Source: Pocillopora damicornis
Taxonomy: Eukaryota
DNA: 64,000 nucleotides
Assembly (NCBI RefSeq): GCF_003704095.1
Contig: NW_020847607.1
Coordinates: forward strand, 620,001-684,000
Direction of reading: 5' to 3'
The stretch's first letter is position 1, and each line of letters opens with the position of its first letter. Shown piece after piece: positions 13,957-57,697 of this stretch. Below the pieces are notes generated by a model that did no database searches, was not told the DNA's origin, and worked only from the letters and a program-made list of their open reading frames with translations. Made by a program: the position numbers and the translations under genes.

Positions 13957-14922
13957 ATGAATATCAACGACATCTCAGCGTTGAAAAAGACATTTCCTGT
14001 AACCGTGACATTTTGTGTAATTTATCTTCTGGAAGGAGTGTTGATCCTTCTGGGTAATACTTTCACCGTCTTTGTTTTTTGGAAGCGTCGAGCAGAGCTA
14101 CAACGAACATCGTATCTTCTCGTAAATTTAGCTCTTGCCGATCTTTTGGTGGCAGTCGGCGTTTCACTAAGTTTGAGCAGTCAAGTCAAAATTTTTGTCA
14201 CCAATGAATTTTCAACACAAGAGGAGTTTTTAAGCCTTTTCACCTGGGATGTGTTTTGTGAAGGATCTTCGCTGCTTAGTTTACTGGTAATATCTTTGGA
14301 GCGCCTCTATGCAGTTCGATGGCCTTTCCGACACCGTACTTTGCGCACCAGCAGCTATATCTACAGCATCGCATTTGCATGGATAACGTCAATAATCATG
14401 TCTGCTACTTTCTTCGCTCTGCTCTACCAAGAAGGTTCCCTCGCTGTCTTTGCTATATCTCCACTCCTTTTTGTTTTTCTGGTGCTCCTCTGTGTTGCAA
14501 ATATTCTCATTTGCGTTCAGATGCGTAAAAATGTTCCTGAAGGAGTGAACCAAAAGCGAGCCTTGCAAAACAAGAAACTAAATAAGACTTTGTTGATTGT
14601 TACAATTCTTTCTCTCATTTTCTGGTTGCCTGGTGTTGTGATGGTGTCTGTTGTTAATGCGTTCGGCCCTGAATGTGCAATCAAAACATATGATGTATAT
14701 CGCGGCCTAAAGATTTTGAATTTGGCAAATTCTATTGTAAATCCCTTAGTTTATGCATTTCGAATGCCATTATTCAAGTCTGAAATCAAGGAATGCTTTT
14801 CTAAAATTTGTCGCGCAAATAGAAATCGGATTGAGATTCGTAACCGCGATACAGCAACACAAGTGTGCGATGAAAATGTTCAAGGAGATGGATATTCAGA
14901 ATGTCACGAAACCAAATTGTAA
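13957..14922 (+). CDS. Class A orphan GPCR 2
   Basis: GN, NLALAD, SLERLY, FWLP, NPLVY; ends ETKL. Confidence 0.92.
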   Translation: MNINDISALKKTFPVTVTFCVIYLLEGVLILLGNTFTVFVFWKRRAELQRTSYLLVNLALADLLVAVGVSLSLSSQVKIFVTNEFSTQEEFLSLFTWDVFCEGSSLLSLLVISLERLYAVRWPFRHRTLRTSSYIYSIAFAWITSIIMSATFFALLYQEGSLAVFAISPLLFVFLVLLCVANILICVQMRKNVPEGVNQKRALQNKKLNKTLLIVTILSLIFWLPGVVMVSVVNAFGPECAIKTYDVYRGLKILNLANSIVNPLVYAFRMPLFKSEIKECFSKICRANRNRIEIRNRDTATQVCDENVQGDGYSECHETKL

Positions 14923-15735
14923 TTTTTTCCCATATGATTTTTCCTCTCGACTGAGAAGTAAACTGTATTCTGCTGAGTAGCCTTTATTGTGCCAATGATC
15001 GGCAGCCTTCCAGAGTTTTATTGTAAGTTAGAGAAATATTAAAAGTGTTGAATCAATGATATACTCCACCAGGACCTCTGTTAGTCGCATAGTCAAGTGA
15101 AATGGCGTAGTTTTTAACAGACTGAGGCTCCAGCGAACATTCGCTTTCTGAAAAAAAGGGTGTAACGGCGCTTATGCATCGATCTCGCCACTTTATTTGC
15201 ACTACAAAGAACACCAAAAAGAATATAGCGCAGCTGTTAATGATTGAAGGACGTTCTAATGGTAAGAAATCTAGATTCACATTTTTATGATCAAACATTA
15301 CATTTTGTCTGCTGTTGACAAAATAAACGACAATATAAAAGATTGTCATGTACATTAGTGCTATGAACATGCAAAGGATATTTAACTCTTCAACTTTTAG
15401 TCAACGATTATGAAAAATTAGTTTTCCAAAAAAGGGTCTCACAAGTCAGTTGTTTAGGAACATCTCGAAATTCGATTTTCTACAAGCTTAGGATCTGATA
15501 TTAAATTCTGATGTTGAAAATAAACTCGCCTCTATTAAATTGCAGCTGTCATCAAAACGAAGCAGGTTTAATGACATGAAAATTGTGATGAGGGCCTGAT
15601 AATAAATTATTTAAATTGCAAATGTCTTATGCTCGGGCATCAACAGCGTGAGTACCGCTTTAACAGTACAATGCCATCGATTTCCACACCCTTTGTAAGA
15701 GAACAAAACTCAGCTATTCGGATTCATCTCTGAGG

Positions 15736-16810
15736 ATGAAGACTTCTTTGCCACCTGCGTTTAGCGTAGTATTTTTTTTGGAAGGAGTGTCAATCCTTTT
15801 AGGAAATATTTTTACTATCTTCGTTTTCTGGAAACATCGAGCGGAGTTGAAAAGAACTTCGTATCTTCTTGCGAATTTAGCTGTTGCTGATCTGTTAGTG
15901 GCAATCAGCATTTTGATCGTTTTGGGCCGCGAAGTGCAAAACCTGGCTGAAGGCCATAATAATTTGATAAAACGATGGCAATTTATCTTTTTTATGATTT
16001 GGGACACGCTATGTGAAACAGCCTCGCTGCTAAATTTACTAGTGATATCACTGGAGCGTCTTTNNNNNNNNNNNNNNNNNNNNNNNNNNNNNNNNNNNNN
16101 NNNNNNNNNNNNNNNNNNNNNNNNNNNNNNNNNNNNNNNNNNNNNNNNNNNNNNNNNNNNNNNNNNNNNNNNNNNNNNNNNNNNNNNNNNNNNNNNNNNN
16201 NNNNNNNNNNNNNNNNNNNNNNNNNNNNNNNNNNNNNNNNNNNNNNNNNNNNNNNNNNNNNNNNNNNNNNNNNNNNNNNNNNNNNNNNNNNNNNNNNNNN
16301 NNNNNNNNNNNNNNNNNNNNNNNNNNNNNNNNNNNNNNNNNNNNNNNNNNNNNNNNNNNNNNNNNNNNNNNNNNNNNNNNNNNNNNNNNNNNNNNNNNNN
16401 NNNNNNNNNNNNNNNNNNNNNNNNNNNNNNNNNNNNNNNNNNNNNNNNNNNNNNNNNNNNNNNNNNNNNNNNNNNNNNNNNNNNNNNNNNNNNNNNNNNN
16501 NNNNNNNNNNNNNNNNNNNNNNNNNNNNNNNNNNNNNNNNNNNNNNNNNNNNNNNNNNNNNNNNNNNNNNNNNNNNNNNNNNNNNNNNNNNNNTCTTCTT
16601 TTCAAGGTCATGCAATACGGGAACTCCCTCGTTAATCCTATAGTCTACAGCTTTCGAATGCCATTGTTCAAGTCAGAGATCAAGGAGTGCTTTATTAAAA
16701 TTTTTGGGGCAAGGAAAACTATCATCAGTGTAAATCAACAGATAGCTACGCGTCCTGAGCCAAGCAGAAAAAAAATTATTGATTTAGGATTTTACGATAC
16801 GAAACTATAA
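15736..16810 (+). CDS. Class A orphan GPCR 3 (TM4-TM6 hidden in gap 16064-16593)
   Basis: TM1-TM3 (GN, NLAVAD, SLERL) before the gap; KVMQYGNSLVNPIVY...YDTKL* after it. Confidence 0.85.
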
Positions 16811-17084
16811 TGACTTTATACANNNNNNNNNNNNNNNNNNNNNNNNNNNNNNNNNNNNNNNNNNNNNNNNNNNNNNNNNNNNNNNNNNNNNNNNNNNNNN
16901 NNNNNNNNNNNNNNNNNNNNNNTTTTTTTGCGCTTTATACTCTTGCCGGTTTTAAATCATACTTAATTGGTAACGTTAGACAGCGGTTTTTTTCTTCAGC
17001 AGAGCCTTTCCAATATTTCCGCGATGTTCCTTCTTTCTTCAGATCTAAAATAGATGAGTTCTTGGCAATACTACACGGAGCAAA

Positions 17085-17300
17085 GTACATCGCGGTTTCC
17101 ATTGCATAAAGCGAACGGGAGTTTACTACTCCTCCTCGAGGGATACCAATCTATCAAATGTCACCCCCTCCCCAGATTGTTCTTCTTGTACTTAATTATA
17201 TTTGTGGCTGTATAGATGCACTGTAGAACTTAAGTGTCCTCCTGTCCACGAATAAAACGCACTGAACCTTCAGGACTGAAACCTATTATTTTTCACCTGA
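17085..17300 (-). mobile_element. Degenerate tRNA-derived SINE copy
   Basis: Weak similarity to 32450-32745 (gcataaagcga...ctactcctcct...aagtgtcctcc). Confidence 0.4.
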
Positions 17301-17735
17301 TGTGCAGCCTGGGAATCATTTGGCCACTGAGTCTGTACGATCCCACAATAAATGTGACACAAAAGTCGCGAGTCGCCGAGCCCCACAAAATCAAAAGAAA
17401 ACCGACAAGCAACAAACCTGTGGGTCCAAAAGACAGCTTAAAATCAGTGGTGGGAGCTCCGTCGTGATTTGATATCTTACGAGTTTTATCCTGAATTTCC
17501 TAGCTAATAATTTACAATTCGTGTTAATTTTCTCCATCCAAAAGTTAGCTCCATTGAGTCATATTCCCCTTAGTGCTATCGAGTGGGTGAGGAGAAATAT
17601 GTGAAATTGTCACTTGTAGTTTGAAAGACCACACCTCATCACAAATTAAATCTGCCACGGCAGTATTAGTTATGAATAACTGATAGGCGAATCCGTTCGC
17701 CATCAAATCTAAGTACTTCTCCTAGAACTGAAAAG

Positions 17736-18701
17736 TTATAGCTTAGTATTATAGTTATGTGAATTAGTGATGTCCACATTTGTTCGTTGTGCGGAAACTC
17801 TGACTCTATCTTGATAAGGATTTTTGTTGCCATCAAATTCCTTCGAAGGGAAAAACTTAGAGCAGCATTTTTTAAGCTCTAATTTGAACATGGGTAACCG
17901 AAAGGCATAAAGTATAGGATTTACCATAGAATTCGAGTATTGTAAAGTTTTTACAATTAGTAAAGTGTAGTATGAGTGGTTACTGGCTACATCTTCAATT
18001 AAAGACCATCCAAATACAGCGGTACAATATATTATTAGAGGTAGCCAACAGAAAACAGAAACAACAGTTACAATTAACAACGTGTTAGTTAGTTTCTTGT
18101 TTTGCTGCGCTCGAATTCCGGGAATATTCTGACGCGTTTGTTGGCGAATGAGTACGTACGAGGCACAGGTGATCGCTAAGGAAAAAGATGTCACTAATGC
18201 CACAATTATGGAAGAGGCTTTGGAAAGACCAATCGCTTCATTGTGGAAAAAAACTGAGAGAAAATCAAAAATGAACATTATTCCTGCCAGTATCCACACA
18301 AATGCAACGCTGTAGATATAACTTCTGATGCTCATCGTGCGGTGACGGAAAGGCCATCGAATTGCATAAAGACGTTCTAATGTCATTGCTAGTAAACTGA
18401 TTAGTGCAACGAATGCAGAGAAAGAATCAAACCCATTGGTAATGATGAACTTCCGAAACCTGGATTGCTGGTGTGAAGCCAGATGTTGTATTCCGTTAGC
18501 AGCAACATGCAAAACGCTGATTCCCACTAAAAGATCAGCGAAGGCTAAGTTCAACAGGAGATACGAAGTTCGTTTTAACTCGCCCCGATGTTTCCAAAAC
18601 ACAAAGATGGTTGAAATGTTACCCAGAAGGATAAAAAACGCCACTAGGAAGTAAATCACACTAAAGGTGCATGTCACTATAGTGGCAGAGGAAATTTCCA
18701 T
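17736..18701 (-). CDS. Class A orphan GPCR 4
   Basis: GN, NLAFAD, TLERLY, CWLP, NPILY; ends NTKL; first ATG 18701. Confidence 0.92.
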   Translation of the reverse strand: MEISSATIVTCTFSVIYFLVAFFILLGNISTIFVFWKHRGELKRTSYLLLNLAFADLLVGISVLHVAANGIQHLASHQQSRFRKFIITNGFDSFSAFVALISLLAMTLERLYAIRWPFRHRTMSIRSYIYSVAFVWILAGIMFIFDFLSVFFHNEAIGLSKASSIIVALVTSFSLAITCASYVLIRQQTRQNIPGIRAQQNKKLTNTLLIVTVVSVFCWLPLIIYCTAVFGWSLIEDVASNHSYYTLLIVKTLQYSNSMVNPILYAFRLPMFKLELKKCCSKFFPSKEFDGNKNPYQDRVRVSAQRTNVDITNSHNYNTKL

Positions 18702-19567
18702 TAGTAAAAATCTTTCCTGGTTCTCTTCCGTCAAACGAATGATCCAATAAATTCTGTGCTGTGCATTTTTTCAAGCTTGGCTTGATTTTGACAAAAACAG
18801 CAATCGCTCCTTACAGTCATGGACAGTATTTATAAAGTTGGAGTTATCAATCTTCCAAACAAGTCGAGCGGGCCAGATTTGCAGGTTCTTAAATAAATAG
18901 GTTCTTCTTTACGAAAATGAAACCTACCCGAAAATGATTCCAAATACTCACAGGTGATTTAATCACATTTAATAAATGTGATTACATTCAAATCAACCTG
19001 GTCGAAAAATTAAAATTGCAATGTTTTGAAACCGAATTAGGTAAACCGAGGAACAAATAACGCGTTAGGCCTTTCTTTGTTTTAACACAAACAGCTTCCA
19101 AAAAGGTATTTACGAAATGTTGCCCCATTGTAAATTGTAAATTTAAAAACTAAAAACCATGCAATTACACGCCACGGGAAAAAACAGTTGGTGCAAAAAC
19201 AAGCATTGCTACATTTATCACGAACTTTATTACAAAAGAAATCTCATGAGAGAAATCAATTGATAAACATGCTTTCATTCATCAAGTCAAAAGAAATCTT
19301 TATTTTTCTTGCTATTTCGCCTGAACAAACATGTCTAAAATGAATTTAATTTATAAAAATTTGCATGCAAGAGACAATTTTTCTGCAATAGAAGAAGGGT
19401 AAAAGGTATCCAATCAGCTTTCATCCTCTCATACTTCAATCCTATTGTGGAAATAACAGGAAATAATAATATTCCTCGCATATCATTTAATTCTCCTTAT
19501 CAGCGGATGTCAGTTCCAAAACTAATGCTCGGTTTTTGCAAAACATTTTACAGGGTATATTCCCTGT

Positions 19568-20518
19568 TTACAGTCTTGTCTCAAACTTCTGTAAAGTTAC
19601 TTCTTTTTTTTTCCTATGAGCTGTTGCATCTAACTCTTTTGCACGACTTGTATCATGACTTCGTTTCTTCTTGGGCGAGATTTTAGAAAATATTTCCACG
19701 ATTTTCCTCTTAATCAGTGGCATTCGAAATGCGTAGACGATCGGGTCTACAACAGAATTTAAATATTGAAACATTTTCGCAAGTAGGATAGCTCTAAGTC
19801 CACTAATGTGGGTTGTCATCACATCGTCAGTGAAATAAGTGCAAATCGATAGGACAATTCCCGGCAGCCAACATATGATTGATAGTCCTGTTACAATACA
19901 CAAAGTCTTCGTCAATTTTTTGTTCTGCTGGTCTCGTCTGTCGTTGAAACCTTCGGGATTATTCCGACGTGTTTGCCTACAGATGAACATGTATGCCGCA
20001 ATGATGATAACCAACGCAGAAACAGCTATTAGGACTAATGTTAAGGGACAAGCAACCCCTAGCTGGAAATAGTTATAGATTGTCTCGTGGTATAAAAAAA
20101 CACAACCTGCCGCAGTTAGCCATATAAATAAAATAGTGACGATATAACTTCTAGTGTTTAATATACGGTGACGGAAAGGCCAGCGAACTGCATAGAGACG
20201 CTCCAAGGCTACTACTAGTAAACTAAGCAGCGAGGCCATCCCGAAAAAGGCGTCCAAAGTAAAGATCATGATAAACAACCAATCTTCCTGAATTACTCTC
20301 TTTGTGGTGAGATATTTTATTCCGCTGCCGACGAGAAATGAAATGTCGACTGTAACTAAGAGATCAGCGACAGCCAAATTTACCAGGAGATATGAAGTTC
20401 TTTTCAGTTCAGCGCGATGTTTCCAGAAAGCAAAGATGGAAAAAATGTTTCCCGCGAGGATGAACACTCCTTCGAGGAAAAAGATTACGGAAAAGATCAC
20501 TATAGTAGAAATTTCCAT
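19568..20518 (-). CDS. Class A orphan GPCR 5
   Basis: GN, NLAVAD, ALERLY, CWLP, DPIVY; ends ETRL; first ATG 20518. Confidence 0.92.
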   Translation of the reverse strand: MEISTIVIFSVIFFLEGVFILAGNIFSIFAFWKHRAELKRTSYLLVNLAVADLLVTVDISFLVGSGIKYLTTKRVIQEDWLFIMIFTLDAFFGMASLLSLLVVALERLYAVRWPFRHRILNTRSYIVTILFIWLTAAGCVFLYHETIYNYFQLGVACPLTLVLIAVSALVIIIAAYMFICRQTRRNNPEGFNDRRDQQNKKLTKTLCIVTGLSIICWLPGIVLSICTYFTDDVMTTHISGLRAILLAKMFQYLNSVVDPIVYAFRMPLIKRKIVEIFSKISPKKKRSHDTSRAKELDATAHRKKKEVTLQKFETRL

Positions 20519-21415
20519 ATCATAGGCAGAGAGAAGGGCAGTCACCTTCGTAGTCGTTGTTTGGTCTCGTCATGCAACGTTTTCTCCCTTACTGCAAGTG
20601 GATCTTACGGCGAGTATTGTTCCAATGCATTAGTATTTCTAACGAAAAAAAATAACAATCAAAAAGAGGAATAGAAACCTTTGTTAAGGAGTGCATGAAT
20701 TTCTACCAGGTGATAATAAACGTCCAATTGAGTCTCCTATTATTGTTAATTTTCCCTTTCCTCCACCTTTCCTCAGACTAACAAAGAACATGCATACAAT
20801 GGAGCTAAAATAACAATTTCATGAGTTTTAGTTATGTTTAAACAACCTAGGGCTGTTTTTGAGCATTTCAAATGATCTTTTGATCAAAGTTTAGAATAGT
20901 GATCAAAATGAATCATATTCATATTCTCTTACACCACAGGAAATCTCTTCATTGTTAATGAGTTTTTTAATTTCCAAGTTCTATATTGATATATAACGGG
21001 TGAATTTGTATTGACTTGTGCAATTGCTTTTCATGACAAAAAGAGGCACTGAACACCTGCTATTTGCCTCTCGTTTGAGTAATAATCGCAAGGCTCTCTA
21101 ATTAGAACCTTCATAGTGTCGCGATGACAATTTTTCTCGCCTAAACGTGTGATGACCACAAATTCCCTGTTCTAACCTATAAAAATCATGACCTATGGTG
21201 GAGAATACCCATTCAGATAACACGCTTAGGGGACCCCACCCTTCCCCCTATAGGGTGTACATTAACTTTGTAGAACGCAGTGTAAATGAGGTCATGACAA
21301 ATGTGCTGATCATTTGGCGTATACGTTTTATTGATGATTTCCGATTTCAAGAACAACTTTAGAATCAATGTAAATATGTTCTTACGGCAGATACAGGAAA
21401 CGAATGAAGTTGTAT

Positions 21416-22276
21416 TTATCCATTTCCTCTGTGTTCTTGCACTCTAAATAGTCTCCTCAAAGATTCCCTAAATATGGGCATTCTGAAACTATATGTAACT
21501 GGATTCACTGCTGAGTTGGCGAGATGTAGAACCCTCCCTGTCAGCATCACTGGTGCCGAGATACAAACAGGACAAAAATCACCCAGTGTGTACAAAATTA
21601 GACCTGGCAGCCAACAGACAAGCGACAATCCTATGACGAGTAACAACGTTTGGGAAAGTTTCTTGTTTCTTTCCAAATAACTCCTGTTTTGATTTCAAGA
21701 GTACGGATGCGTGCGTTTCAAGTACTTGCATATAGTCAGGTAGCCTGTACAAACAAGACTTACAGAGAGCAGATAAACTACATTTACAGCCACGGTTGAC
21801 GGCATTTTATCGGACGCAGAGAAAACTGGTATCAAAAAGATCAATGATGTGCCCATCCCAGCGGTCCAGGCGAAGGTAATGGCGCCAAAATAAACTCTTA
21901 GGCTCACTGTTCGGTGGCGAATTGGCCTCAGAACGGAGAAAGCTCGTTCGATTGATATAAGAGCGAGGCAACAACTAGATGAAGAAGAGAAAAAAATTGT
22001 CAAAGACGTCGTGATGAAGTTTACCAGGGGAATCAGGGTATCTTTGAGAAAAGACACGCCGAAAAGGTTTGGAACCTGTCCAGAAGCGAGTGATATTAAT
22101 TCCCATACGCCTACCAGAAGATCAGAAACTGCGAGGTTGATTAACAGATACGAGGTTTGTCGCAAAGTAAGCCTCTTCTGCCAAAAAACAAAAATAGCAA
22201 ATGCATTTCCAATGGAAATGACAAGGGCCTCGACTGAGAGTAGAAAACAAAATAGCATGAAGAGTGTTTGAGGCAT
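21416..22276 (-). pseudogene. Class A orphan GPCR 6 with a single in-frame TGA (21697-21695) in ICL3
   Basis: ORFs 22276-21695 (TM1-5) and 21676-21416 (TM6-7) share one frame: ...THPYS*NQNRSYLERNKKLSQ...CWLP...NPVTY. Confidence 0.8.
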
Positions 22277-23395
22277 TTGTGCTCTGACTGTGGTCGGAAT
22301 TCGCCGAACTTATGACCGGGTACTACCTTTAAAAAGCTAAATTAACTTATATGAGTGCGACATTGCTATACCTTGATTAAAAATTTAAAATAAATGAATT
22401 GTGCAAATAATTGTTTGTTCTTGCAGAGAGGCTACTACTGTTGTCGACCTGTTTTAATAAAACTGGATGCAAATTTATCTTAGACTGAGATAAAATAAGC
22501 AAGGCGGAATTTTGATTGGTCAAGACTTGAACGTCATTTTGTATAGTTATGGTTGGGTTTTTTAATTTTTTCAATTAAATATGGCATGCATGAAAAAATA
22601 ATAACAAGACAATTTCATAACAAGATTAAGATCTTTGTACAAGCTCACCCTTTATTTTCCTTTCACGTCCTCTGTTAAGATATATAGCAAAATTCTCTCT
22701 TTATACATTCTCATGACTAGTTAAATTGATTTAAAATGCCTGCAGAACATTGCAACTTGCCTAATTTTGGCACTTGTTGCTCATTCTAAGGATCAGCAGG
22801 AAAGCTTTATGTTTTTTAGAGAGGCTTGTAGATGCCTCCTATAACTTTCATCATAGGTCCTTTTGGGCTCCTACATGTTTTTGTCGTCGTTGCTTTTCAA
22901 CATAACTTTGTAATAAATATAGTATAGGCTTATTCCGCCATATGTAACCTTTTTTTCTGTTTTTTTTTTGAACCGTTATGTTTTTGTTTTTTTCTTTGAA
23001 TTGCAAGCAATTACTCAGTAACGTCTGCCTTATTTCTCAAGTTCTTCTATTAGTTACTTTTTGCTGACTGTGCGAGCAAGTTTAAGTTAATCATGACATC
23101 TTAAAGATCTTTACGTTATATATTAGACAAAGTTGCATTTCAAAAAAATTACAATTAAGCAGGGGGTTTTCAATATACACATGATAATCTAAACTATTAC
23201 TTCTCTGCGTACTATCCACGTTCTCTCAGTTCTAACCTGATGAAGTTTCTATGTATGTACACTTCTGCTTACTACTTTCTAAAACCTTGCTTTGGAATCA
23301 TACATGATCTTTCATTTGCAGATCCTCCCGCTCGTAGAAAACAGAGAGCATCAGTCGAACGTCTTTTTTATACAAATTCATCTCAGACCTGCTTG

Positions 23396-24301
23396 CTAAA
23401 GATGGCTATTAAAACATTCCAACTGACCAGACTGAACTGTATTCTCGCTCGAGATACATCTAAAGCATCTAATTTTGTTCAGGAATTTTTTCATCTCTTC
23501 TCTAAACATAGGCATACGATAACTGTAGACAACTGGGTTAACTATAGAATTCGACAGATGTAATACCCTTGTACTGGAGACAATTTGTAGTCTAACCATT
23601 GCTTCAGAACAAGGGTTGCAGTTTACTTGAACGCCGGTAACCACGATGGCGGGGACCCAAAGTAGGAGAGACAAAGTTGTAACTATGATCAATGTACGGG
23701 ATAGTTTCATGTTTTGTTCCTCTGTGTGACGATTGTGAGCATCGAGTGACAGCACAGTTTTGTTCATTCGGGTGCGAATCGCCCTGTACGATGCAACAAA
23801 AATGGCTAACGAACAAAGCAGTGCTAATTCGGTGGGGATGTTAGCTTCTTTATCAATTACATCTAATGAGACCAGTGTGTAGAGTACTCCAATAGTTATT
23901 CCAGCAATCCAAGCTAAAGCAATGTTCACGATGTAAAATTTTGTACTTATGGTTCGATGACGATATGGCCAGAGTACTGCATAAACACGCTCTAAAGATA
24001 TTCCCACCAAGCAGAATAACGACGAACACGAAAATGAAATCTGAAATGCGGAGAATGGCTCGTCGTAAATGATCGCCTTCACAGTCATTTCCCGAAATGA
24101 GAGGAAAATTATTTCTAACAATGCTGCAGCGCCTATGAGAAAATCCGTCACAGCCAGATTTATCAAAAGAAAAGCAGTTCTTTTTAAGCAGAGTTTTCGT
24201 TGAACAAATACATAAATGGTAAAAGCGTTACTAGCTAATATCACTAATGCCTGGATGATATTGATGACGGAAAAAAATAAGGCAGTTGTCGAGGCTGACA
24301 T
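23396..24301 (-). CDS. Class A orphan GPCR 7
   Basis: SN(TM1), NLAVTD, SLERVY, LWVP, NPVVY; ends NSHL; first ATG 24301. Confidence 0.9.
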   Translation of the reverse strand: MSASTTALFFSVINIIQALVILASNAFTIYVFVQRKLCLKRTAFLLINLAVTDFLIGAAALLEIIFLSFREMTVKAIIYDEPFSAFQISFSCSSLFCLVGISLERVYAVLWPYRHRTISTKFYIVNIALAWIAGITIGVLYTLVSLDVIDKEANIPTELALLCSLAIFVASYRAIRTRMNKTVLSLDAHNRHTEEQNMKLSRTLIIVTTLSLLLWVPAIVVTGVQVNCNPCSEAMVRLQIVSSTRVLHLSNSIVNPVVYSYRMPMFREEMKKFLNKIRCFRCISSENTVQSGQLECFNSHL

Positions 24302-25401
24302 GGCTCCCAAAACCGGATCAATTTCAGAATAGAATCTTTGACACAACTCAGCCTTGACCGTTAACTAACAACGAACCTCCACCCGATCGCAACGGAAACT
24401 TTGAGGTTATACGAAGCACAGAGCCCCCAATTTGAATTTTATATGTTGGGACACCGCACTGCGTCATGGATAAATAACACATGCGCCGGAAGAGGAGCTA
24501 TACACATTACAAGCTATATGTTCGCCTAAAATGGTATTTTTTTTTAAGAAAGATGAGCAGTTTGACCACTTTAAAACTGATTTTGTCTCTGTCTAATTCG
24601 CCTAAAGCACAGTGCATGTAATCTGATTGACTAAAATGAAACAGCGCCATTTTCTAAAACAATTTAGCATAAAGTGAAATCTTTTCAGGACTTGATCACG
24701 AAAATTTCAGAATAAAACCCCTGTCGGCTTTTCATCAACCATTCGATCTGTTTTTATTTGCATGATTTCTCCGCTCTGTTGGATAATCAAGCAACAAGAG
24801 TGAAACAATCGAGTGAGTAATGAAAAAGGTTCATACCATAAAAGGCTAATAGGTTTCAAAGTAAAAAAAAAAAGGGGAAGGCGTGAAAGACTTCTCCTTG
24901 TCATATTTTAGGCAAAATGTTTTCCTCTTTAATTAATACGTTTTTTAAGATTTGATTATTTAGAAGCGAGTAAATCGACAAAGAGAAAATTATTTGAACT
25001 TATCTGGAAGCAGATCACATTAAAAGCAGATTAATTACTTATCTATTAAATTGCACGTCCAGAGAAATGAAAGTACAAATTTCCTAATGAGTTGTTTCCT
25101 TCCGCGAAAACGTCCCTCAGGCTCCGCCGAATACATAGAGAAATAATAACTGTTTTCTGGATTTCACCGATAATTACTACGTCTGTGTACTTCACTTTTA
25201 GATTTGAGATGTTGGTCAGCCTAGAGCCTGGTTTCATTTTCCCAAGTACGGCTGTCATATTTGTTGAACGTTTCTGGCGAAAAATAAACTTGGGTAACAT
25301 TGAATTACATTGACATCGATTAGCTCAGTGCATTTGCTGTATAAGTAATTTACGAATGTTGAAAATTTCCTTTCTTGAGCATAGAGAGGGTGGTACTTTC
25401 C

Positions 25402-26335
25402 TTAACTATAGGGAATTTCATTGAAATCCAGCATTGCTACTGGTTTGGACAGATCGTTTGGGCTTTTTACACCAGCCTTTGAACTTCTCCTGTTATTCCG
25501 TGTCCTTCTCGGTTTTAACTTACTGAGTGGCTCTTTAAAGATAGGCATCCTAAAGCTATAAATAACTGGATTTACGAACGAGCTCGCTATATTAAAAAGT
25601 GTTGTAGCATAGAGAGCACCCATAGATATACGACATTTACATACGGCGTACACAAAGTATAGAATGCTCCCCGGCAGCCAACAAACACAAGAGGCAGCTG
25701 TTACGATGCACAAAGTCTTCGATAGTTTTATGTTTTGTTCGACGTTATTTCGACTATTTCGATTGATAGCCGGGACATCTCTGGAATAAAGTTTATTCCG
25801 AATGCTCCAATAGCTGCCGCAGATTATGGCCAGAGCGGAAAATATCATAGAGCAAATAATGTACTGAGAGATTTCATGACTCCACATTTTGGCTGTATCT
25901 AATAAAAGTAATGCACCCACGAATCCGCCGATAACCCAAACGGTGACAATACACCAAATGTACGATTTGTTCGAGGCGAGCCGATGGCGAAGAGGACAAA
26001 CCACAGCATACGCACGTTCCAATGAGATAAGAACAAGAAAAAATAAGGACGAACACGAAAACATAGTAGGAATTATTGCAGAAAAATCATCTTGGTTTGA
26101 TACGAGGACTTCGTCTGTTTTATTTCCTTGAAATTGCCCCTGTTCCAATGGCGATTGGTTCAGTAGCGCCAACAAGGAGGTCAGCAATGGCCAGGTTTAT
26201 TAGAAGAAACGAGGTTCGCTTCAGACGAGCACGATAAATCCAGAACACATAAATTGTAAAAATGTTCCCGATTAGAATAAAAACGCTTTCAACAGAAATT
26301 ATGCTGCAAATAATGACTACTGCAACGTTTGTCAT
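25402..26335 (-). pseudogene. Class A orphan GPCR 8 with frameshift after TM2 (~26145-26120)
   Basis: TM1-2 (GN, NLAIAD) in ORF 26335-26120; TM3-7 (SLERAY, CWLP, NPVIY) in a different frame, ORF 26187-25402. Confidence 0.8.
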
Positions 26336-26589
26336 TGTACGACACGCAGTTAAATTTCGTCTTCAAGATTTTTCTATAACGCTGCAGTGAACAGTTTTGA
26401 TGCGTGCTTTTTAGAAGAGACGAACGTAACAGCAATACAATGATAATAATTCAAAATCACATGGTGTGATATCTGATTTTCTCTCTACAGTCTTTTAACG
26501 CAGTTATTTGCATAACCACTACAAGATCACTTTTTCAGCCAAATCCTTTGATTTCATTGGCTTCTCGACTTGCTAAATATACAAATGAC

Positions 26590-26591
26590 TG

Positions 26592-26627
<36 letters not shown>

Positions 26628-26742
26628 TCAGGGGGAGAGTATAACAGGTAATTTGGTACTATCAGCTGAGTTGATAACGTAAATAGGCCACCGCAAAACG
26701 TTTCAAAGCCGACGTTTCGAGCGTTAGCCCCTCGTCAGAGCC
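26590..26742 (-). mobile_element. ~150-bp repeat carrying a hammerhead ribozyme core (Penelope-like/retrozyme-type)
   Basis: Reverse complement aligns with 57494-57645 over its whole length. Confidence 0.75.
26707..26742 (-). ncRNA. Minimal type I hammerhead ribozyme motif
   Basis: GGCU-CUGACGA-G-GGGC-UAAC-GCUC-GAAA-C-GUC^-GGCU: intact CUGANGA and GAAA boxes, 4-bp stem II, palindromic ACGU helix III, GUC cleavage triplet. Confidence 0.7.
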
Positions 26743-27713
26743 AAATATACATTTATCCTAATAAATGTAGCTCGTGAGTACTGCATACATCAATCAAATC
26801 TGAAATTGTTTTAAATTACTTGTCAAGGATAACACTACAAAAAGCATTTGCGCTTGATCGCCAACATCGTAGGAACATCATAGGCCATTTCCTCAAACAT
26901 CACATCTCCACATTTGCTGCTTTTCCAGCGAAAATTTATTGATTTGCATATAAAAATTTGGAATCACACTTTTTTTATGCAGCTCGTCAGATTATAAAGA
27001 AGGTTCACAGATTTAGCTAAAAGGGCAGCTGAGTGGTATAAATTCATTATAGAACCGAGAGAACTAAAATATCGAAAGTTTTCTTGGCTAAGAAGAATGC
27101 ACGTTTTTTTCATTTCCACTTCGCTATATAAGTCAGATTGCATAATAATTTATCCGAATGAGAAGTGGAAGGAAATTCTCAAGTGGGACTCCACATTTAG
27201 AATCTGGAGCAACTGGTTATACTTGAGGGAGTCCCCACAAGACCAAACCATCATTCATAGGTACAGTTAGCAGTTGAACGTTCCGTCGACCATGTTTATA
27301 ATAGGTCAGTTCCCAGGCCCTCTCATATAGGTGTCTCGATGACTTAGCCCACATAGCTGGTAAATTCGTGTGCTTAAACTCAATTGCGCAAGCGTGCCGC
27401 TTTGTATTCCCATTATGCAAGTTGACGACGTTTGTAGATGCACTGAAGCACGGGAGGAATTTCTGTTAACGTAGCATGTAAATAACCACGTTAAAAATGT
27501 TATGAAACTATTGATCCATGCGTCAGTTGTATTTTAATCTAGATACGAATTACTTGAGAAGTTTGAAGAGCAATCGAGAATTATTTAACCCCTGAGCATC
27601 TTTCTCTCACTCCGAACTTTCTGCGTGCCTCGTGTCACAGTGAACGCGCAATAAAGCATGACCCACTTTTAAATTACGAACCAAGACGAGGGGAACCTTT
27701 ATAAAGAGCTTTA

Positions 27714-34100: not shown

Positions 34101-37100
34101 ACTTTCAACATTACACCATCTCGTACGATTGCTTCGCAATCGATACTTGGAAGTAGTATAAGTCAAGGTAGGGTTAGTGTATTTATTGTGTATTTACGTG
34201 TTAAATACTAACAAACATGTAAAAGGGAAGTTTCGATTCTAGGGAACGGGTAAACACCGCATGCGATCGTCTCGTTAATCGTGCTATGTGAAGTTAATTA
34301 TTACTCCCTCAGATAAGATATTGTGCCATCAAAGGGCATGGCCTCTCCTCTCGTATTTCGTCAGGTTTACTTGACAGTTGGTTGGCACACTGATTTTAGG
34401 CCGAGAGAGGCATGGTGAGAGTAAAGTGTCCTCCCTAAGAACATAAGTGTGAAGGTACTTATTTGAGTAATCTCGAGTTCAAGGCCTATACCCAGAGGCC
34501 ACCGCGTCTCTTGCGATTAATGTACCGGGAGATTTTTCCGGATTTTTAATGCAGATTAAAGAAGGCGGGTATGGTGATAAAAAAAAACCTGTGATTGCGG
34601 ATGCATGATTCTCGGACCGTACTCTTCAAAATTTGTGTTATCAGTCCTGAATCCGAGGGAGGTCCAAAATGGTACTTTTAATTTCAAAAACTAGGAGCCA
34701 AGTTTGACACGCGTTATTTCTTTTGTCTCACAGTCCAGCCCCTCAGGTGTTATGAGTCCTTATGCCAAGGATCAATGATCAATTGCAGTGAAAATAACTT
34801 GAAACAAAGAGTTTGTGAGCCGAGTGACGATCGATGTGCCTGGGCCTATACGCGACTTAATTCAAGTTTTCAAGTTCTGCACATGAACTGCACTTCAAGC
34901 AATTTATGCAAAGACGCTGGCCCGTCATGTGATCTGCTGATGAAAAACAGAGATGTGTGCTGCGACTATTTGTGTTGTGACTCACCACTTTGCAACAAGC
35001 CGAAATATTTGCAAGGTAGGCTAAGTTCGCGTAAAAAGCCTACAACGAAGGCGTCTTTGCATACACTGATTGTGGCTCCTTTGACCGGCTGCGGGGACTA
35101 AAGGGGGAGGAGAGGCAGTAATAAAAAACACAGGTTCAAAAAAAAGGAACTTACGTCTCACGTGTAGTATTATCGTTCCTATAATTTCTAAACCAATTCG
35201 GAATAGAGAAGTTTTTCGAATGAGTGTCGCTAGCGCAGTTTTTAAATGAGTGTCGAACGTAATCTGAAATTTCTTTGGTTTTGCCTCATTTTGCTTTGTG
35301 ATTGGTCCAGGAAAAATCGCGTCAACCAATCAGATGCAAAACTAAAACCAATCACGTCTTAGTCGCCCGCGTTTTCCCGCGCGTTTTTTTACTTTGAACC
35401 CTCATCGGTTCTTCAAGGTGTTTTCCTTATTTCTGATTGGCTGTTGTAATTGGTTTGGTTTTGGCTTTACGACAATCCAATCAAAAAGCTCTCTAGCTGA
35501 TATCAAGTGCAGAGAAACACAAGGGACTAAGTCGCGCTTGAATTCAGTTTTGCAATTGATTGATTCATAAGCGAGGGAGCAGGAGTTCAAGTTAAACAAT
35601 CAGAGAGCGTAGAAAAGCAAAACCAATGCAATCGCGGGTTATTTTCAAAACATGAGTGAAAAGGGCTTAAAATTATGTGTAGTCTGGTTGATCGATTGCT
35701 CTGAGCCGGAACAAAAAATACAACAAAAGAAACAAAAAGAATAGAGCCTAATTTTTGAATGGTCTAACCCATCAATTAGCAAGTTTTTTTCATTCACACT
35801 TTTTTCAGGTGGGAAGTCGTGCAAAAGAAAACCCGATCTCGTCGCGGTCATCTACGGAGGCATTGAGGTCATCCGAGGACATAACGAAAGCATCACAATG
35901 AATGCGTCGCTTTCATATGACCCGGACGTTGGCATCGGTGACTACTCGGGAATGAACTTTACCTGGTTTTATGGCGAGATTACAGGCAATTACACCGGCC
36001 TACAGACAGCTACGAATGATAGTCAGACAGGGTTAGACGAGTCGATTATTCGTTATTTTGGGAACGATTCTGGTATAGAAATCACCTTTAATACAGCACC
36101 ACTGCTCCTCAACAGGACATACGTGGTTAAACTGGTTGTCTCTAAAGACTATCGCGACTCGAGTGCATATCAAATTATTCAGTTGGTGAAAGGAGACCCA
36201 CCTGAAATATACCAACGGTAAGCGAGTTGTTTTGTGCCGTTCAGTCAGATTGAATTAAGCAACTGTTAACAAAATTCGTTGTATTTACATACACAGTTTT
36301 AGATTGCCGCTGGTTAAGTGCAGTGGGCGCGGTTTCCCACACCATTTTTACCAAGTTTTTTTGACGGAACGATTTTAAGGTAGTTCTGAGAACGTAGTAA
36401 CTACGAATCATGGGATAGCTCCTCATAAGTAGAATGCTGTAGTCGTTGTTAAAAAAGTTCAAGCATTCTGGACGCATTCAAGTGATTGTGTTTCTTTCCC
36501 CTAAGCGCAGCTGTCCGCCACACAACCGTTAAGGTTAGAAATGAATATTGTTTACGTTAGAAATTTTTCTCCCTCGTCAAAAGCAATTGAAATACTTAAT
36601 TGACTATTAACTTGCCTATCCTTGACGAGCAAGTTTCGTCATGCACCTGAGCCAAGAGCCATCCAGCTTAAGCCGGCGACATACCCGGCGATTTAAACGC
36701 CGATCGGCAAAAATCGCCAGGTGTGCTCGATGCAATGATTGCGATTTTCCCCGATCGCGGCGATCAAATTTGCCGCGATTGGCCGATAAAATCGCCAGGT
36801 GTGTCGCCGACTTAACTCTCCAGTTATTTGTCATAATGTTTTGCCATTTTTTATTTTTAAGATGCCTAGTAAACTGTGGACTGAAAGTTGTTCCACAAGT
36901 TAAACTCAGTATTCAGTCACAATGCCAGGGGTCCCTGTGCTCCAATATATCTTCGTATGAGTGGATACTCTATGAACAATCCTCTTCATCTGCAAACAAC
37001 GGCATCTGGATTCGAAAACAACATTTACAGCTTATCACAGACACACCACTCGGTTCAAGTAATATCGTCATCAAAAAAGGTTCCCTCTCTGGGAGAACAA

Positions 37101-40100
37101 ATTACCGTCTGGCATTGTTTGTTCAAACTACCGCCGGCTTACCAGGGATGAGTGCATACGACATATCCACTACGTCAGCGCCTACAGGGGGCACATGCAC
37201 GATCACTCCCTCCAGCGGCATCTCTCTGAAAACTGACTTCAACCTGACATGCAGTAACTGGAAAAGTGACAGCATACCTCTGTCCTACCAGTTTCAACAT
37301 CAACTAGAGAACGGTCTATACAGTATGTTGTTTCATGGTTTTAACAACACGGTTAGCTCTTGGTTACTGCCTGGTAATCTGTCGGAAAACTTCACTGTAA
37401 AGGTCAAAGTGATAATAACTGATTATGTTGGTGCCTCTGCTGCGGTGACAAATTTGTCTGTGCAGGTACGACTTTATGTTTCCAGTTGTTTTGGTCATGA
37501 CGTCATTAGGAAGAACTGATGACGTTATAAAATTATGATATCATTGCGAAGTGACCATTTTTGTGAAATTAACACCCATATTTTCCATTTCTTCAGCTGT
37601 AAAGAAGGTTCGAGGTATTCGTTTAGTAGAGGGGGCGTGAGTTTTGAACGATTCGTTATCCGTTATCCGAACCTCCCTTATTTTTTCTTATTTCTTAAAG
37701 AAAAGCCTGGAAAAAGCAAGCGTTTATATTTTGTAGCATGATTATTTTGATTGCTAACACAAGCGAGTTGGTCAGTGAATTGTGATCGTATAGATTGTAG
37801 AAATTTTTAGAATGTCATTACTTTGTTGAAGCGAAGGGGATTTTTCTTCAAATCCCCCAAGGGGTAGAACTATTCCTATTGACTCTGAGATATAGTAAGA
37901 TTAGTTTCTGCTGTGGCCTTTATTTTTTCTTTTCTTACAGTCGATTGGTTCATGTTTGACTTTCTGTAGGTGAAGCCATCGGAGCTTTTGAGACCAGAAA
38001 ACATCAGCAGCTTTTTGACAGCTAATGATAGTTTACTTAATGACGTCATCCAGGATGGAGACTTAAGTAGAGCTGCACAAATTGCAAATTCTGTCCTCCA
38101 GACTGTTTCCCAGGATAGCACCGTGAGTTTACAGAATAAGGCTAAAGTAAGTCAGCTTGATGTTGAGTTAGTGATTGAGGTGAAAATTGCTCCGTAAACA
38201 GCACAATTCTTTTATCCTCGTTACTCTCACCATTGTAGTTAAAATTTTGTCTTTTTGGTAAGGGGGGAGGGGTGGTGAGCAAATTTCAATCCATACAACT
38301 ACGATTAAATTGATTCATGAAACTTACACAGTGTCTCAGAAGTGTCTTCTTTCATCTCCACAGATTCAAGATTTTCTGATCAAAAAGATCATCTCTCTAC
38401 CCGTGCAAAATCTTCCAGACCTTCTCCAAAGCACGTCTGTAATTGGCTCTGCTTTACAGGTTTCGGAGAGAGTGTCCTCCAACACTCTGGTATGGAAATT
38501 GTTTAAAAAAAAATGAGCATTTGATAATGAGTATTATCAACATTTACGATTGCTCTCTATCTTTGAAATTTTAGGAGTCCGCGATGTCTGCTGTTGGTTC
38601 AATGACATCACTTCTCTGGAGAACCGCCCAGTTAAAAGAAGTGGCCTATATACCGCTAGTCACGCAGTCTGCAGAGAACCTGGGCACATGTCTCAATAGT
38701 GTGTTGAAAACTGGAGCAGTAATAGCGTCAGGAGATTTCGGCTCTGGGCTTCAAGAGCAGGTATAATGTTAAGAACACCTGAGCGATCATACATATTTCA
38801 TACAATAGGCTAACTCATACATGTGTTTTGATTGGTTCTTGTCTATACAACCTATTAGAGGACAGACGCATAGATGGCGTCACCGTCAACAGATTTTGTT
38901 TCTTTATTATATAGAAAAAAATATTCTCTGTCTTTGTGGGTCTGTGCAATTGGAGATCACAGAAGACATAGAAATGTGCTAAGACAAAGAGTCTGAAATG
39001 ATCAAGGAACATGGGAATGAGAATGGGAAGAGAACCTATGATACTCACAAACTTTTCAGCTAAGATTGGTCGACAGGCGTTGTTGCTACGTTATACGATC
39101 ACTTTGATGATCGAATAATGACCGAATTTTGAGTATTTTCAAGGGCAAAAGGATAATGCTTCTACTTCGTAAAAGTCGTTCATTTTAAGTGCAAATTGTG
39201 GATACATCTTTAATCTTCAAAAAACCGTGTGTTTATTTAGAAGTACGCACTTTTAAAACTCCGAACAGTAAGTTTTATGAAGCCTGGTGGGCCAATTTTG
39301 GCCCATTCTTCTCTAGTTTAGGGCTCTTCAAAGCGAGGTCGCGATCAAATTTGCCGCTTTATTCTGCCCGATGTTTTTAAGATTTGATAAACTGCCTGTG
39401 TGCTTATCTTTACAGGGTGTGAAATTCGTTAAGACCGCGATGCAAACAATTAGTTTAGTTGCTGACGCAGTATTAGCTGTTAGAGCCCCGGATGAGGGCA
39501 TGATCTCCATATCAACGAGGGAGCTGAGCATGACCTTAGGACGCCACAGCCCCGAGAAACTTGCGGGGTTGAGGATCGAAGCAGCGGGCGGGGTAATTGT
39601 TCTTCCTTCTGACAGCCAATCATTACAATTTACTGTCACTGCAAAAGGTTACATTGATACTCAGGTAAGCATGCTTATCAAAGTATTCTCAGAGTCATCT
39701 TAAGAGCGAATAAGACATGCTATTGACTGTGTGTGTGGGGGGGGGGGGGTCAGTCAGGAAAAAGTTTTGGTTCGTGGTCTTGGGAACCAATTGGATTTTT
39801 CTTAAGAATGTAACTCAAGGGCAAAAAGATGTAGGTGACCGAGCCACGATTTACTTTTGCATCTGATTAGTGGAGGGTGGCGCATAAGTTTTACTTGACC
39901 AATCACAGACCTTTGTAAGGTAAAATAGTAGCAATGTCTGTTACTTTTTACACTCAATTGAATTCTATTTTTAGCTTTTAATCATTCATTTATGGCAGAT
40001 GTTGTCAATTCCATTCAACCCCTACACTTGGGACGGAACAAGGAAGCGAGTCAACTCTGATGTCTTAGCTCTCGACTTAAAAGACGAAACGCGTAATGTG

Positions 40101-56100: not shown

Positions 56101-57697
56101 ATAATATAATCTTGTAACAGTGTTTTCACATAGCAGTCAGATTTATTTAGACAGATTGTCTACATGTATATTAGAGAATTAAAACTTCCTATTGTGTGTC
56201 AGGAATTCAAAGAGGGCCGTCGTGCAAGCCAGACAGCACCACAAGTCATCTTCAGTCACAAAGAACCCCCACAGGAATTGCAGGGAACTGGTGCCAAGAC
56301 AGGCGATAACATTGGATATATCACCTTTGGTTAGTATCCATTCTTAGACAGAATCTTTTGTTACCCTTGTGAGTGGAAATGATGGAGGATGATCTGACTA
56401 TCTCTTGTAGCAACATGAAACAGTTGGGGAGATTTCGCAGCATTTTGAGGACATACACTGTAGTATTAGCAGAGGGAAAGTGCCAACTTTAGACGGTTTT
56501 TTTTTAAAATTCTAATGTAGAGTAATGGAGCTCAACTTGAGTGAAGAGTACAAGAGTTACCCACCCCTCCCAAAGGAGATTCTATTTAAACTACCCACTA
56601 AGTGATGATGGAAGTGAAAATAGGTCTGGAAACAGACTAGTGCATGCTGAATCATTAATTAAAGTTCTCAGACTCAAACTATTTCTTGTCCTATAAGTAA
56701 GATGAAAATCAATACTAGAAAAGAATGCTAAACTTATCCATTCATTGCCAGTGTTTGCATTGTAACGCTCAGTCAAAAGTAGTTTTGACACACACTTAGA
56801 GGAATTTTGAGCGAGTGATAATCATATTAAACGATGACCATCTTGTACCTTTGTAGTTCTTGAACCACGTCACACAAAGCCTGATGCTCGAGACAGCACC
56901 ATCAATCTTATTCACACCTTCAGGAACTACCTGCATTATCACATCAAATGCTCAAAGGTACTTCTTACCTAATACACGTGTTACAAATTATTAAGATTTT
57001 AATTTTTATGTGGGGATGCAGGCCCCAAAACTAAACCAAAAGACCTTGTTACCACTTGTGAGTAAAAGAAACGCAGTGGTTTAACAGAACGTTCTTGTGT
57101 GTTTTATAAAGGCCTATCTTCATTCGAGGATGAGAGCTAGAACAGCAGAATTCATCAAAGTACTCAACAGAGCCAAACCGGAACAGAAAACAACAGAGAA
57201 GAAAACTGTGAAGTACGTAATACGGGTGTAGTTCTTTATTTATCGTCCATAATTTGGTTATCTGAACGAGCCAAGGGTTTACCTGGTAATTGAAACAGTA
57301 AGAAAGGCTTTTCTTGGGCGGCGGAAAAACGGGATAGCCGTCAACATTGTGGGACGAATTTTTACGAAAACGGTTCAGTGGAAATAAGGGGAAAATCGCA
57401 TCCAGCAAATGTAAAAGGAATTCTTGTTCAAAACAAGCGTTCTGATTTCAAGGCTTCCGTGAATAAGTCAATCGAAATGCGTTGTTGCAAATTGCTCCGA
57501 CGACGGGCTAACGCTCGAAAGGTGAGCTTTGAAACTCTTTACGGTGGCCAATGTACATTATTAACTCAACTCAGATAAACGCAAATTATCTTGTTAACTG
57601 CCCCACCGACGCAGCACCACAGTCTCTTTAGAAACGTGCCCCCTTATTAACTTGCGTTATTGTTTTTTACAGGGGTACGACGTTTGTTCGTCAGTAA
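53132..57697 (+). CDS. ARPC2: Actin-related protein 2/3 complex subunit 2 (p34), 299 aa; exons 53132-53193, 53313-53347, 53945-54003, 54094-54147, 54349-54394, 54924-54983, 55128-55263, 55621-55714, 56203-56329, 56857-56957, 57112-57212, 57673-57697
   Basis: [98 protein letters not shown]; 900 nt open frame. Confidence 0.97.
57494..57645 (+). mobile_element. Second copy of the hammerhead-bearing repeat, catalytic core mutated
   Basis: gctccgacgacgggctaacgctcgaaaggtgagcttt...gacgcagcaccacagtctctttagaaac. Confidence 0.7.

What the first reader, a model, noticed from the sequence alone, without database searches (positions are those of the whole stretch)
26590..26742. Hammerhead-ribozyme mini-element upstream of, and sense to, GPCR8
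Seen on the minus strand: CUGACGA-G-GGGC(UAAC)GCUC-GAAA-CGUC^GGCU with a 4-bp helix I and predicted cleavage between 26711 and 26710, ~375 nt 5' of the GPCR8 ATG. It heads a ~150-bp non-coding repeat with a second copy at 57494-57645. Established: Penelope-like elements and non-autonomous retrozymes carry minimal hammerheads with palindromic helix III that cleave as dimers. Inference: a mobile self-cleaving RNA family whose inserted copies could cut host transcripts, possibly in trans between copies.
Basis: partly seen in the sequence, partly recalled or inferred. Interest (0 to 1): 0.7.

Follow-up and report, generated by a model that had tools for sequence, protein, structure and literature searches.

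The report
Penelope retrotransposon end with minimal hammerhead
This 158-base piece is one of well over a thousand scattered end-fragments of a Penelope-type jumping gene in a likely coral genome; it carries that gene's known minimal self-cutting RNA motif and likely sits outside, and does nothing to, the neighbouring receptor gene's transcript.

Summary
The motif is real: a minimal type-I hammerhead on the minus strand, predicted cut 26711/26710, 375 nt above the GPCR8 ATG. It is not a family of its own. It is the terminal repeat (pLTR plus tail) of a Neptune-type Penelope-like retrotransposon. 35 of 39 endonuclease remnants carry it just downstream, and one also holds the reverse transcriptase. 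The genome has 1,528 core matches, mostly this family. Copies show the known inverted-arm, one-sided-tail and target-duplication footprint. Inserted copies decay neutrally, and copy 2 has a broken core. RNA contigs of GPCR8 stop short of the element, and GPCR8 is a frameshifted allele here. Cutting of host transcripts is unsupported. One side result: 5' ends pile up 31 nt below a TATA box of the parent, with a small second peak at the predicted cut. That suggests mostly uncut and a few ribozyme-cut templates. The scan noted similar Penelope stubs and both boundaries before, in other genomes.

The parts
26584..26741 (-). Solo pLTR arm with tail of a Neptune-type Penelope-like element (copy 1)
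   Evidence: 88-90% identical to its best genome copies; differs from the majority of its 29 nearest copies at 13 of 158 positions; the same sequence follows the endonuclease ORF in 35 of 39 loci
26707..26742 (-). Minimal type-I hammerhead: core intact, extra base between 9 and 10.1, 4-bp helix II, loopless ACGU helix III, weak helix I with two G.U pairs; predicted cut between 26711 and 26710
   Evidence: Sequence; family columns; matches the motif described in PMC4209133
26584..26645 (-). One-sided 'tail' of about 55-60 nt, with a 6-bp hairpin at 26601-26616
   Evidence: 48 of 65 inverted arms end at family position 90-102 while tailed arms end at 138-158; hairpin predicted
26741..26751 (-). 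5' target-site duplication of copy 1 (11 nt, one mismatch to its partner; supplies the outer G of helix I)
   Evidence: Sequence; family rate of duplications of 10 nt or more is 54 of 95, against 7 of 400 shuffled pairs
26573..26583 (-). 3' target-site duplication of copy 1
   Evidence: Sequence
25402..26335 (-). Rhodopsin-family GPCR gene ('GPCR8'), frameshifted in this assembly by an 11-nt deletion at 26132; a polymorphic null allele
   Evidence: 7tm_1 in two frames; 11 more letters in 4 of 4 RNA runs; deletion in X1, X3, X5; 11 more letters in X12
57488..57652 (+). Copy 2: solo pLTR arm with tail, hammerhead core broken, starting at the family's usual 5' boundary
57478..57487 (+). 5' target-site duplication of copy 2 (10 nt, one mismatch; partner at 57653-57662)
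   Evidence: Sequence

Best explanation
The element is the terminal repeat (pLTR plus tail) of a Penelope-like retrotransposon, inserted here as a solo 158-bp piece between 11-bp target duplications, likely copied by the parent's reverse transcriptase and GIY-YIG endonuclease from a short RNA and likely decaying without a role for the host. Shown: the same sequence starts about 95 nt after the stop codon of an RT + CxxC linker + GIY-YIG ORF; most short copies are head-to-head pairs with the tail on one arm only; inserted copies mutate evenly across core and flank. Inferred: a TATA/initiator promoter in the parent's repeat starts an RNA 6-7 nt before the ribozyme core. The protein cuts both target strands and primes copying at two internal sites (about positions 94 and 150). 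The copies run off the RNA's 5' end and are joined head to head; a solo arm results when the second copy is very short. The short copies lose the TATA box, so they are likely dead ends rather than masters. The ribozyme is likely maintained only in source elements, where it needs a partner copy or the element's protein; most templates were uncut.
For: Parent: L040 has an endonuclease remnant directly upstream. 35 of the 39 other best genome matches to that remnant carry the element just downstream in the same orientation; the 4 misses are L117, L121 (contig end), L132 and L136. L102 holds RVT_1 (E 3.4e-7, above cut-off) and GIY-YIG (E 3.1e-4, just under cut-off), with C3 97 nt after the stop. 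The window's own subfamily is also endonuclease-linked (L016 84%, L005 78% to the L040 upstream piece). Footprint: of the first 100 of 631 tail-anchored copies, 65 are inverted pairs, 23 solo, 7 extend into the parent, 5 have assembly gaps; duplications of 10 nt or more in 54 of 95 against 7 of 400 controls. None of 152 distinct flanks beyond the tail shared sequence with another. Neutral decay (49 full-length arms, non-CpG sites): private changes 6/438 in the core against 55/3295 downstream, p = 0.84; shared variants at 0 of 21 core and helix sites against 11 of 68 downstream sites. Three other GIY-YIG families here keep the core with wholly different paired helices, one with the U3-A8 swap. 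5' boundary: 48 of 69 arms that reach position -4 stop within -7 to -4, 17% per base against 0.2-0.8% in most other intervals. TATAAA begins 31 nt above the A at -6 in 18 of 27 parent-type arms; chance for a 6-nt window is 48 of 10,035.
Against: No intact full-length parent was found among 39 loci; shared sequence reaches at most 1.3 kb upstream, so the master is inferred. No tree against named clades was built. The start site is not measured: only contigs were available. The boundary could also come from stalling at the ribozyme fold or from a 2-3-nt microhomology between the arms; a further 45 arms stop at -3 to +5. The 27 TATA entries are one family (25 loci), not independent. The site-level contrast 0/21 against 11/68 is small. 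Arm classes and ends are automatic BLAST calls, good to a base or two, and a few pair calls are loose.
Confidence: 0.9

Rival explanations
1. The short units are a self-propagating non-autonomous family (SINE- or retrozyme-like): short or palindromic copies are themselves transcribed and re-copied by the Penelope protein.
For: Short copies greatly outnumber long ones (7 of 95 gap-free copies are simple extensions into the parent). Hundreds of RNA contigs per run carry the family (429-1,052 laid). D. virilis Penelope has an internal promoter (PMC2377424, passages). A preprint derives animal retrozymes from pLTRs (10.64898/2026.07.22.740005, abstract and introduction).
Against: Junctions between arms differ from copy to copy rather than being inherited as one form. 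Short and endonuclease-linked copies share the same diagnostic variants at two sites. Short copies lack the TATA box. No tandem array of the unit was seen in the loci read.
Confidence: 0.2
2. One reading: this copy lies in the GPCR8 5' leader and cuts or destabilises it, alone or by pairing with other copies in trans.
For: Same strand as the gene, core intact at all 11 positions in copy 1, element present at this site in all 4 DNA runs with no empty-site joint listed, and many family RNAs exist as possible partners.
Against: GPCR8 RNA contigs end at 26374, 26407, 26446 and 26532; none listed crosses to 26584 (a weak hint, as contigs cannot show starts and the list is cut). 34 of 49 full-length copies keep an intact core anyway. 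Helix I carries a private weakening change. In a 280-nt context helix II forms with probability 0.01 or less, and the active dimer (-12 to -13 kcal/mol) loses to the best co-fold (-26). Minimal hammerheads show no monomer activity and low dimer activity (PMC4209133); the anole one cleaved only with protein (PMC11167929). The seven other GPCR genes of the cluster have no copy (only two copies in the window).
Confidence: 0.04
3. The insertion acts on GPCR8 at the DNA level (promoter or enhancer effect) rather than as a ribozyme.
For: It lies 140-180 nt above where two RNA contigs end (26407, 26446). Penelope pLTRs can drive downstream transcription (PMC2377424, passages).
Against: This copy starts at family position -1 and so lacks both the TATA box and the initiator-like bases. 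No empty allele was seen for comparison.
Confidence: 0.06

Closest known systems
Minimal hammerheads in pLTRs of metazoan Penelope-like elements (Cervera and de la Pena 2014, PMC4209133; text parts 1-2 of 4 read)
   Same: Type I, short helix I, extra base between 9 and 10.1, G10.1-C11.1 pair, palindromic 15.2-16.2 with no loop; thousands of mostly single motifs per genome tied to truncated elements; some pairs on opposite strands; cnidarians included.
   Different: Helix II is 4 bp here against 7-8 bp in Schistosoma; helix I is 3 bp. The sharp 5' boundary and the TATA spacing are not described in the parts read.
Canonical EN+ Penelope-like elements of the Neptune (or Nematis) clade (Craig et al. 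2021, PMC8557442 and preprint; passages)
   Same: [quoted passage not shown]
   Different: The tail is about 55-60 nt here against 30-40; most insertions are reduced to the two repeat arms; no intact ORF found.
Adineta vaga Penelope pLTRs (Arkhipova et al. 2013, PMC3846280; passages)
   Same: Head-to-head pLTRs with palindromic junction, optional tail, 8-10-bp duplications, solo pLTRs, putative TATA box plus initiator inside the pLTR.
   Different: There TATA and initiator are 20 bp apart and copies are few; solo pLTRs lacked duplications, whereas both window copies have them.
Poseidon of Anolis carolinensis (Frangieh et al. 2024, PMC11167929; text parts 1-2 of 4 read)
   Same: Two internal reverse-transcription starts define the tail; uncut RNA is the main substrate; AT-rich targets.
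   Different: There the ORF starts inside the ribozyme and no RNA reads ended at the cut site; here the repeat follows the ORF stop and a small class of genomic arms begins at the predicted cut.
Non-LTR retrozymes of corals (Cervera and de la Pena 2020, PMC7229834; passages)
   Same: Short non-coding repeats with type-I hammerheads in stony corals. The paper counts over 6,000 motifs in A. millepora, of which up to 1,508 are canonical and the rest resemble the minimal PLE type.
   Different: Retrozymes are head-to-tail tandems of 220-240 bp with canonical, fast ribozymes and circular RNAs; this family is head-to-head or solo with a minimal ribozyme.

Membership tests
EN+ Penelope-like element | RT and C-terminal GIY-YIG endonuclease in one ORF linked to the repeat | tested here: met
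   L102: RVT_1 E 3.4e-7 and GIY-YIG E 3.1e-4 in order, in two frames of a broken copy, repeat 97 nt after the stop; 35 of 39 endonuclease loci carry the repeat
EN+ Penelope-like element | [quoted passage not shown] | tested here: met
   L100 and L106 read VIYCITCTYCNKLYIG followed by two downstream histidines; feature defined in PMC8557442; the histidines were assigned by eye
EN+ Penelope-like element | Inverted 5'-truncated copy and tail on one end only | tested here: met
   65 of 100 copies are inverted pairs; 48 of 65 inverted arms stop at 90-102; L109, L110, L119, L120, L124, L134 show the same around endonuclease remnants
EN+ Penelope-like element | Target-site duplication of variable length | tested here: met
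   54 of 95 at 10 nt or more against 7 of 400; both window copies have one
EN+ Penelope-like element | Full-length or partial-tandem copy with pLTR-ORF-pLTR | tested here: inconclusive
   None intact among 39 loci; the assembly has 4,393 contigs and gaps inside these repeats
Neptune clade | CX2-5CxxC linker between RT and endonuclease (shared with Nematis) | tested here: met
   CARSRCKTC in L100, L102, L106, L110
Neptune clade | RT phylogeny grouping with named Neptune elements | not tested
   No named reference sequences were fetched
Minimal PLE hammerhead | Intact core, extra base 9/10.1, G10.1-C11.1, palindromic loopless helix III | tested here: met
   Copy 1 meets all; copy 2 fails at U4, 15.2 and 17
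Minimal PLE hammerhead | Self-cleavage as a dimer or with protein | not testable with these tools
   Only energies and an indirect genomic peak at base 1.1
Non-LTR retrozyme | Head-to-tail tandem repeats, each with a hammerhead | tested here: not met
   100 copies were inverted pairs, solo, parent-extended or gapped; no shared sequence beyond the tail among 152 flanks
Non-LTR retrozyme | Canonical type-I ribozyme with 6-bp helix I and loop 1-loop 2 contacts | tested here: not met
   Family helix I is 3 bp
Non-LTR retrozyme | Abundant circular RNA | not testable with these tools
   Only assembled contigs were available; no joint from the cut site back to itself is possible with one ribozyme per arm, and none was listed

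The most novel reading that the evidence does not exclude
The 5' ends of these stubs are a genomic record of two RNA templates: a major one that starts at a TATA-driven polymerase II start 6-7 nt before the ribozyme core, and a minor one that starts exactly at the ribozyme's cut. That would show that a minimal Penelope hammerhead does cleave in the animal, and that cut RNA can still be reverse transcribed and inserted, sometimes as two cut ends joined bluntly (L204/L206).
Probability: 0.35. Interest if true: 0.5.

Novelty: new member of a known kind. Interest (0 to 1): 0.22.

Why it matters
As a locus it is ordinary: one decaying stub among more than a thousand, beside a broken receptor allele. 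The family is a large natural sample of Penelope insertion products. The role of Penelope hammerheads is still called unclear (PMC8557442 preprint), and in the one reconstituted system cleavage was not needed and no cut ends were found in RNA reads (PMC11167929). A genome-wide map of arm ends, with 5'-end RNA sequencing in this animal, would test whether the ribozyme cuts in vivo and where the template starts.

Tried and rejected
Rfam scan of the window: no hammerhead family at E up to 1, one chance snoRNA hit. Folding of the motif and of the whole element: z-scores -1.3 to 0, no special stability; one of the best monomer folds pairs the core with its own cut site. An early idea that the loop between arms flips between two fixed forms was dropped, because junctions vary from copy to copy. 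The first core-against-flank test showed a better-kept core (2.1% against 7.2%, and 2.4% against 4.7%) but mixed subfamily differences with decay and used local alignments; one search replaced it. A Pfam GIY-YIG search of the genome found 7 loci, none of them this family; the parent was reached through the flank of L040. PDB search with the RT piece: no match. The sigma-70 promoter scan does not apply to an animal and was ignored. The table of 'short arms' wrongly held some parent-type arms and was not used for counts. In one search, 23 of 42 hits examined were intact copies with a shifted T-run and were set aside; the other listed hits were judged by eye to be of that kind and were not fetched. 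Two of the 9 arms at position 29 (L222, L248) look like rearranged whole copies. Summed read depth over the element was not used as a copy number or expression level. RNA contigs without cover at 26533-26583 are only a weak hint. Lunse et al. 2017 was not held; it is cited only through the review PMC6765202 (passages). No supplements were read; those of PMC4209133 and PMC7229834 list coral motif families and may contain this very one. Literature searches (listings only beyond the papers named) showed no paper on these 5'-end peaks, which is not proof of absence.

Full report
Observation. The minus strand at 26742-26707 holds a minimal type-I hammerhead as described: CUGACGA, one extra base, a 4-bp helix II, GAAA, a loopless ACGU helix III and C17 at 26711, 375 nt above the ATG at 26335. 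Helix I is weaker than stated. The family has three pairs. Copy 1 has U.G at the first pair through a private change and gains a fourth, G.U, from the flank. Copy 2 (57488-57652) is 81% identical but has U4 to C, a broken helix III palindrome and G17. Rfam does not detect the motif.

Host. The window is from a 234-Mb assembly in 4,393 contigs. Five RNA or DNA runs in the list are labelled coral metagenome or marine metagenome with this stretch, so a stony coral is likely; this is an inference. The window has a cluster of eight rhodopsin-family GPCR genes, polycystin-like exons and a ferroportin.

Copy number. There are 452 exact copies of the commonest 34-nt ribozyme form, 631 of a 28-nt tail motif and 1,528 matches to a looser core pattern, against 7 for the control. 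Most of the first 100 listed are this family.

Parent. Several copies share sequence upstream of the ribozyme, and L040 leads into an endonuclease remnant. Of the 39 other best matches to that remnant, 35 have the element just downstream. L102 holds RT (RVT_1, E 3.4e-7), a CX4CX2C linker and GIY-YIG (E 3.1e-4), with the ribozyme 97 nt after the stop. By the features in PMC8557442 (passages) this is a canonical EN+ element of the Neptune or Nematis type; Neptune is the one reported in a coral. No tree was built. Some copies are 97-98% alike, so one subfamily was active recently; no intact ORF was found. The window's copy belongs to an older subfamily, also endonuclease-linked (L016, L005), and differs from its neighbours' majority at 13 of 158 positions.

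Insertion anatomy. I read the first 100 of the 631 tail-anchored copies: 65 head-to-head pairs, 23 solo arms, 7 extending into the parent, 5 with assembly gaps. In pairs the second arm lacks the tail (48 of 65 end at position 90-102; C3 = 1). Duplications of 10 nt or more flank 54 of 95, against 7 of 400 shuffled pairs. Both window copies are solo arms with 10-11-nt duplications. This is the layout described in PMC3846280 and PMC8557442 (passages), and two priming sites explain the tail in PMC11167929 (parts 1-2 read).

Is the ribozyme under selection? In 49 full-length arms chosen by the tail only, private changes are as common in the core (6/438) as downstream (55/3295), p = 0.84. Variants shared by three or more copies occur at 0 of 21 core and helix sites and 11 of 68 downstream sites. 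Three other GIY-YIG families keep the core with different helices: L061/L065/L067, L062/L066, and L064 with the U3-A8 swap. The motif is therefore likely kept in source elements and left to decay in inserted copies; 34 of 49 still have an intact core, so an intact core at copy 1 is no surprise.

Where copies begin. Of 160 arms (95 tailed, 65 inverted), 69 reach position -4 and 48 of these stop at -7 to -4: 17% per base, against 0.2-0.4% at 11-27 and 30-60, and 0.35-0.8% above -14. A further 45 stop at -3 to +5. In the parent, TATAAA begins 31 nt above the A at -6 in 18 of 27 arms from 25 loci, and the boundary reads CCAAT or CTAAT; TATAWA falls in a random 6-nt window in 48 of 10,035 draws. 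The TATA-to-start spacing of about 30 nt and the initiator consensus are recalled from general knowledge. The likely reading is a promoter in the pLTR whose short uncut RNA is the template. A second peak lies at the predicted cut: 6 of 135 arms stop at 28-29, 2.2% per base. In a separate genome-wide pattern (61 hits, 42 examined), truncated arms began at 28 once, at 29 nine times, at 30 once, at 31 three times and at 32 or later five times. Two of the nine are rearranged whole copies, and some others have microhomology at the AGCT palindrome. L204 (= L206) has two arms joined bluntly, both starting at base 1.1. The two samples overlap in part. This is suggestive only. Earlier notes of the scan report both boundaries in other genomes; I had seen both here and ran after reading them.

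Relation to GPCR8. The gene stops after 71 codons in this assembly. All 4 RNA runs and DNA run X12 have 11 more letters at 26132-26138; DNA runs X1, X3 and X5 match the assembly (X1 may be its source). So it is a segregating null allele of an expressed gene. RNA contigs over the gene end at 26374, 26407, 26446 and 26532, and none listed crosses into the element at 26584; contigs cannot show a start and the list is cut. The element is at this site in all 4 DNA runs, and no empty-site joint is listed. The modelled active dimer is -12 to -13 kcal/mol against -26 for the best co-fold, and helix II barely forms in the local 280-nt context. Published minimal hammerheads are inactive as monomers and slow as dimers (PMC4209133).

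Verdict. A solo pLTR stub of a Neptune-type Penelope-like element: a new member of a known kind, confidence 0.9. Cutting of host RNA, 0.04. Interest 0.22. The in vivo cleavage record is the part worth a follow-up (probability 0.35, interest 0.5 if true).

Noticed in passing
window 25402-26335 (-): GPCR8 carries an 11-nt frameshifting deletion at 26132 in 3 of 4 DNA runs and is intact in the fourth and in all 4 RNA runs; one RNA run (X16) has a different 1-nt deletion at 25887. The gene looks prone to null alleles.
   Followed up: yes
window 21420-22276 (-): A second GPCR of the cluster has an in-frame TGA at 21695-21697 after 193 codons, and the frame continues as receptor sequence beyond it: another likely null allele.
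   Followed up: partly
window 12804-26335: Cluster of eight single-exon rhodopsin-family GPCR genes, three on + and five on -, about 1.8-2 kb apart.
   Followed up: no
L061, L065, L067; L062, L066; L064; L094: Other Penelope-like families in this genome, each with its own minimal hammerhead after the GIY-YIG ORF (L094 seen without ORF check); L064 has the U3-A8 core swap reported for Schistosoma.
   Followed up: partly
window 26601-26616 (-) and about 26657-26675 (-): A 6-bp hairpin near the tail end and an interrupted palindrome shortly before the no-tail end are kept in the family; they may mark the two priming sites.
   Followed up: no
window 6930-7068, 8727-8863, 35262-35393, 39889-39935: Another dispersed repeat with CCAATCA motifs, at least four pieces in the window; not identified.
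   Followed up: no
window 36641-46309 (+) and 58926-60521 (-): Exons of a polycystin-like gene (PKD_channel and Polycystin_dom in the last large ORF) and a ferroportin ORF with a long Ser/Thr/Pro-rich insert; copy 2 lies 1.3 kb beyond the ferroportin stop, on the opposite strand.
   Followed up: no
window 40775-40889 and 61775-62039: A 23-nt tandem repeat (4 copies) and a degenerate TGAC-rich microsatellite.
   Followed up: no
L156: The junction holds several tandem repeats of the first 20 or so bases of the ribozyme, which looks like repeated slippage at the template's 5' end.
   Followed up: no
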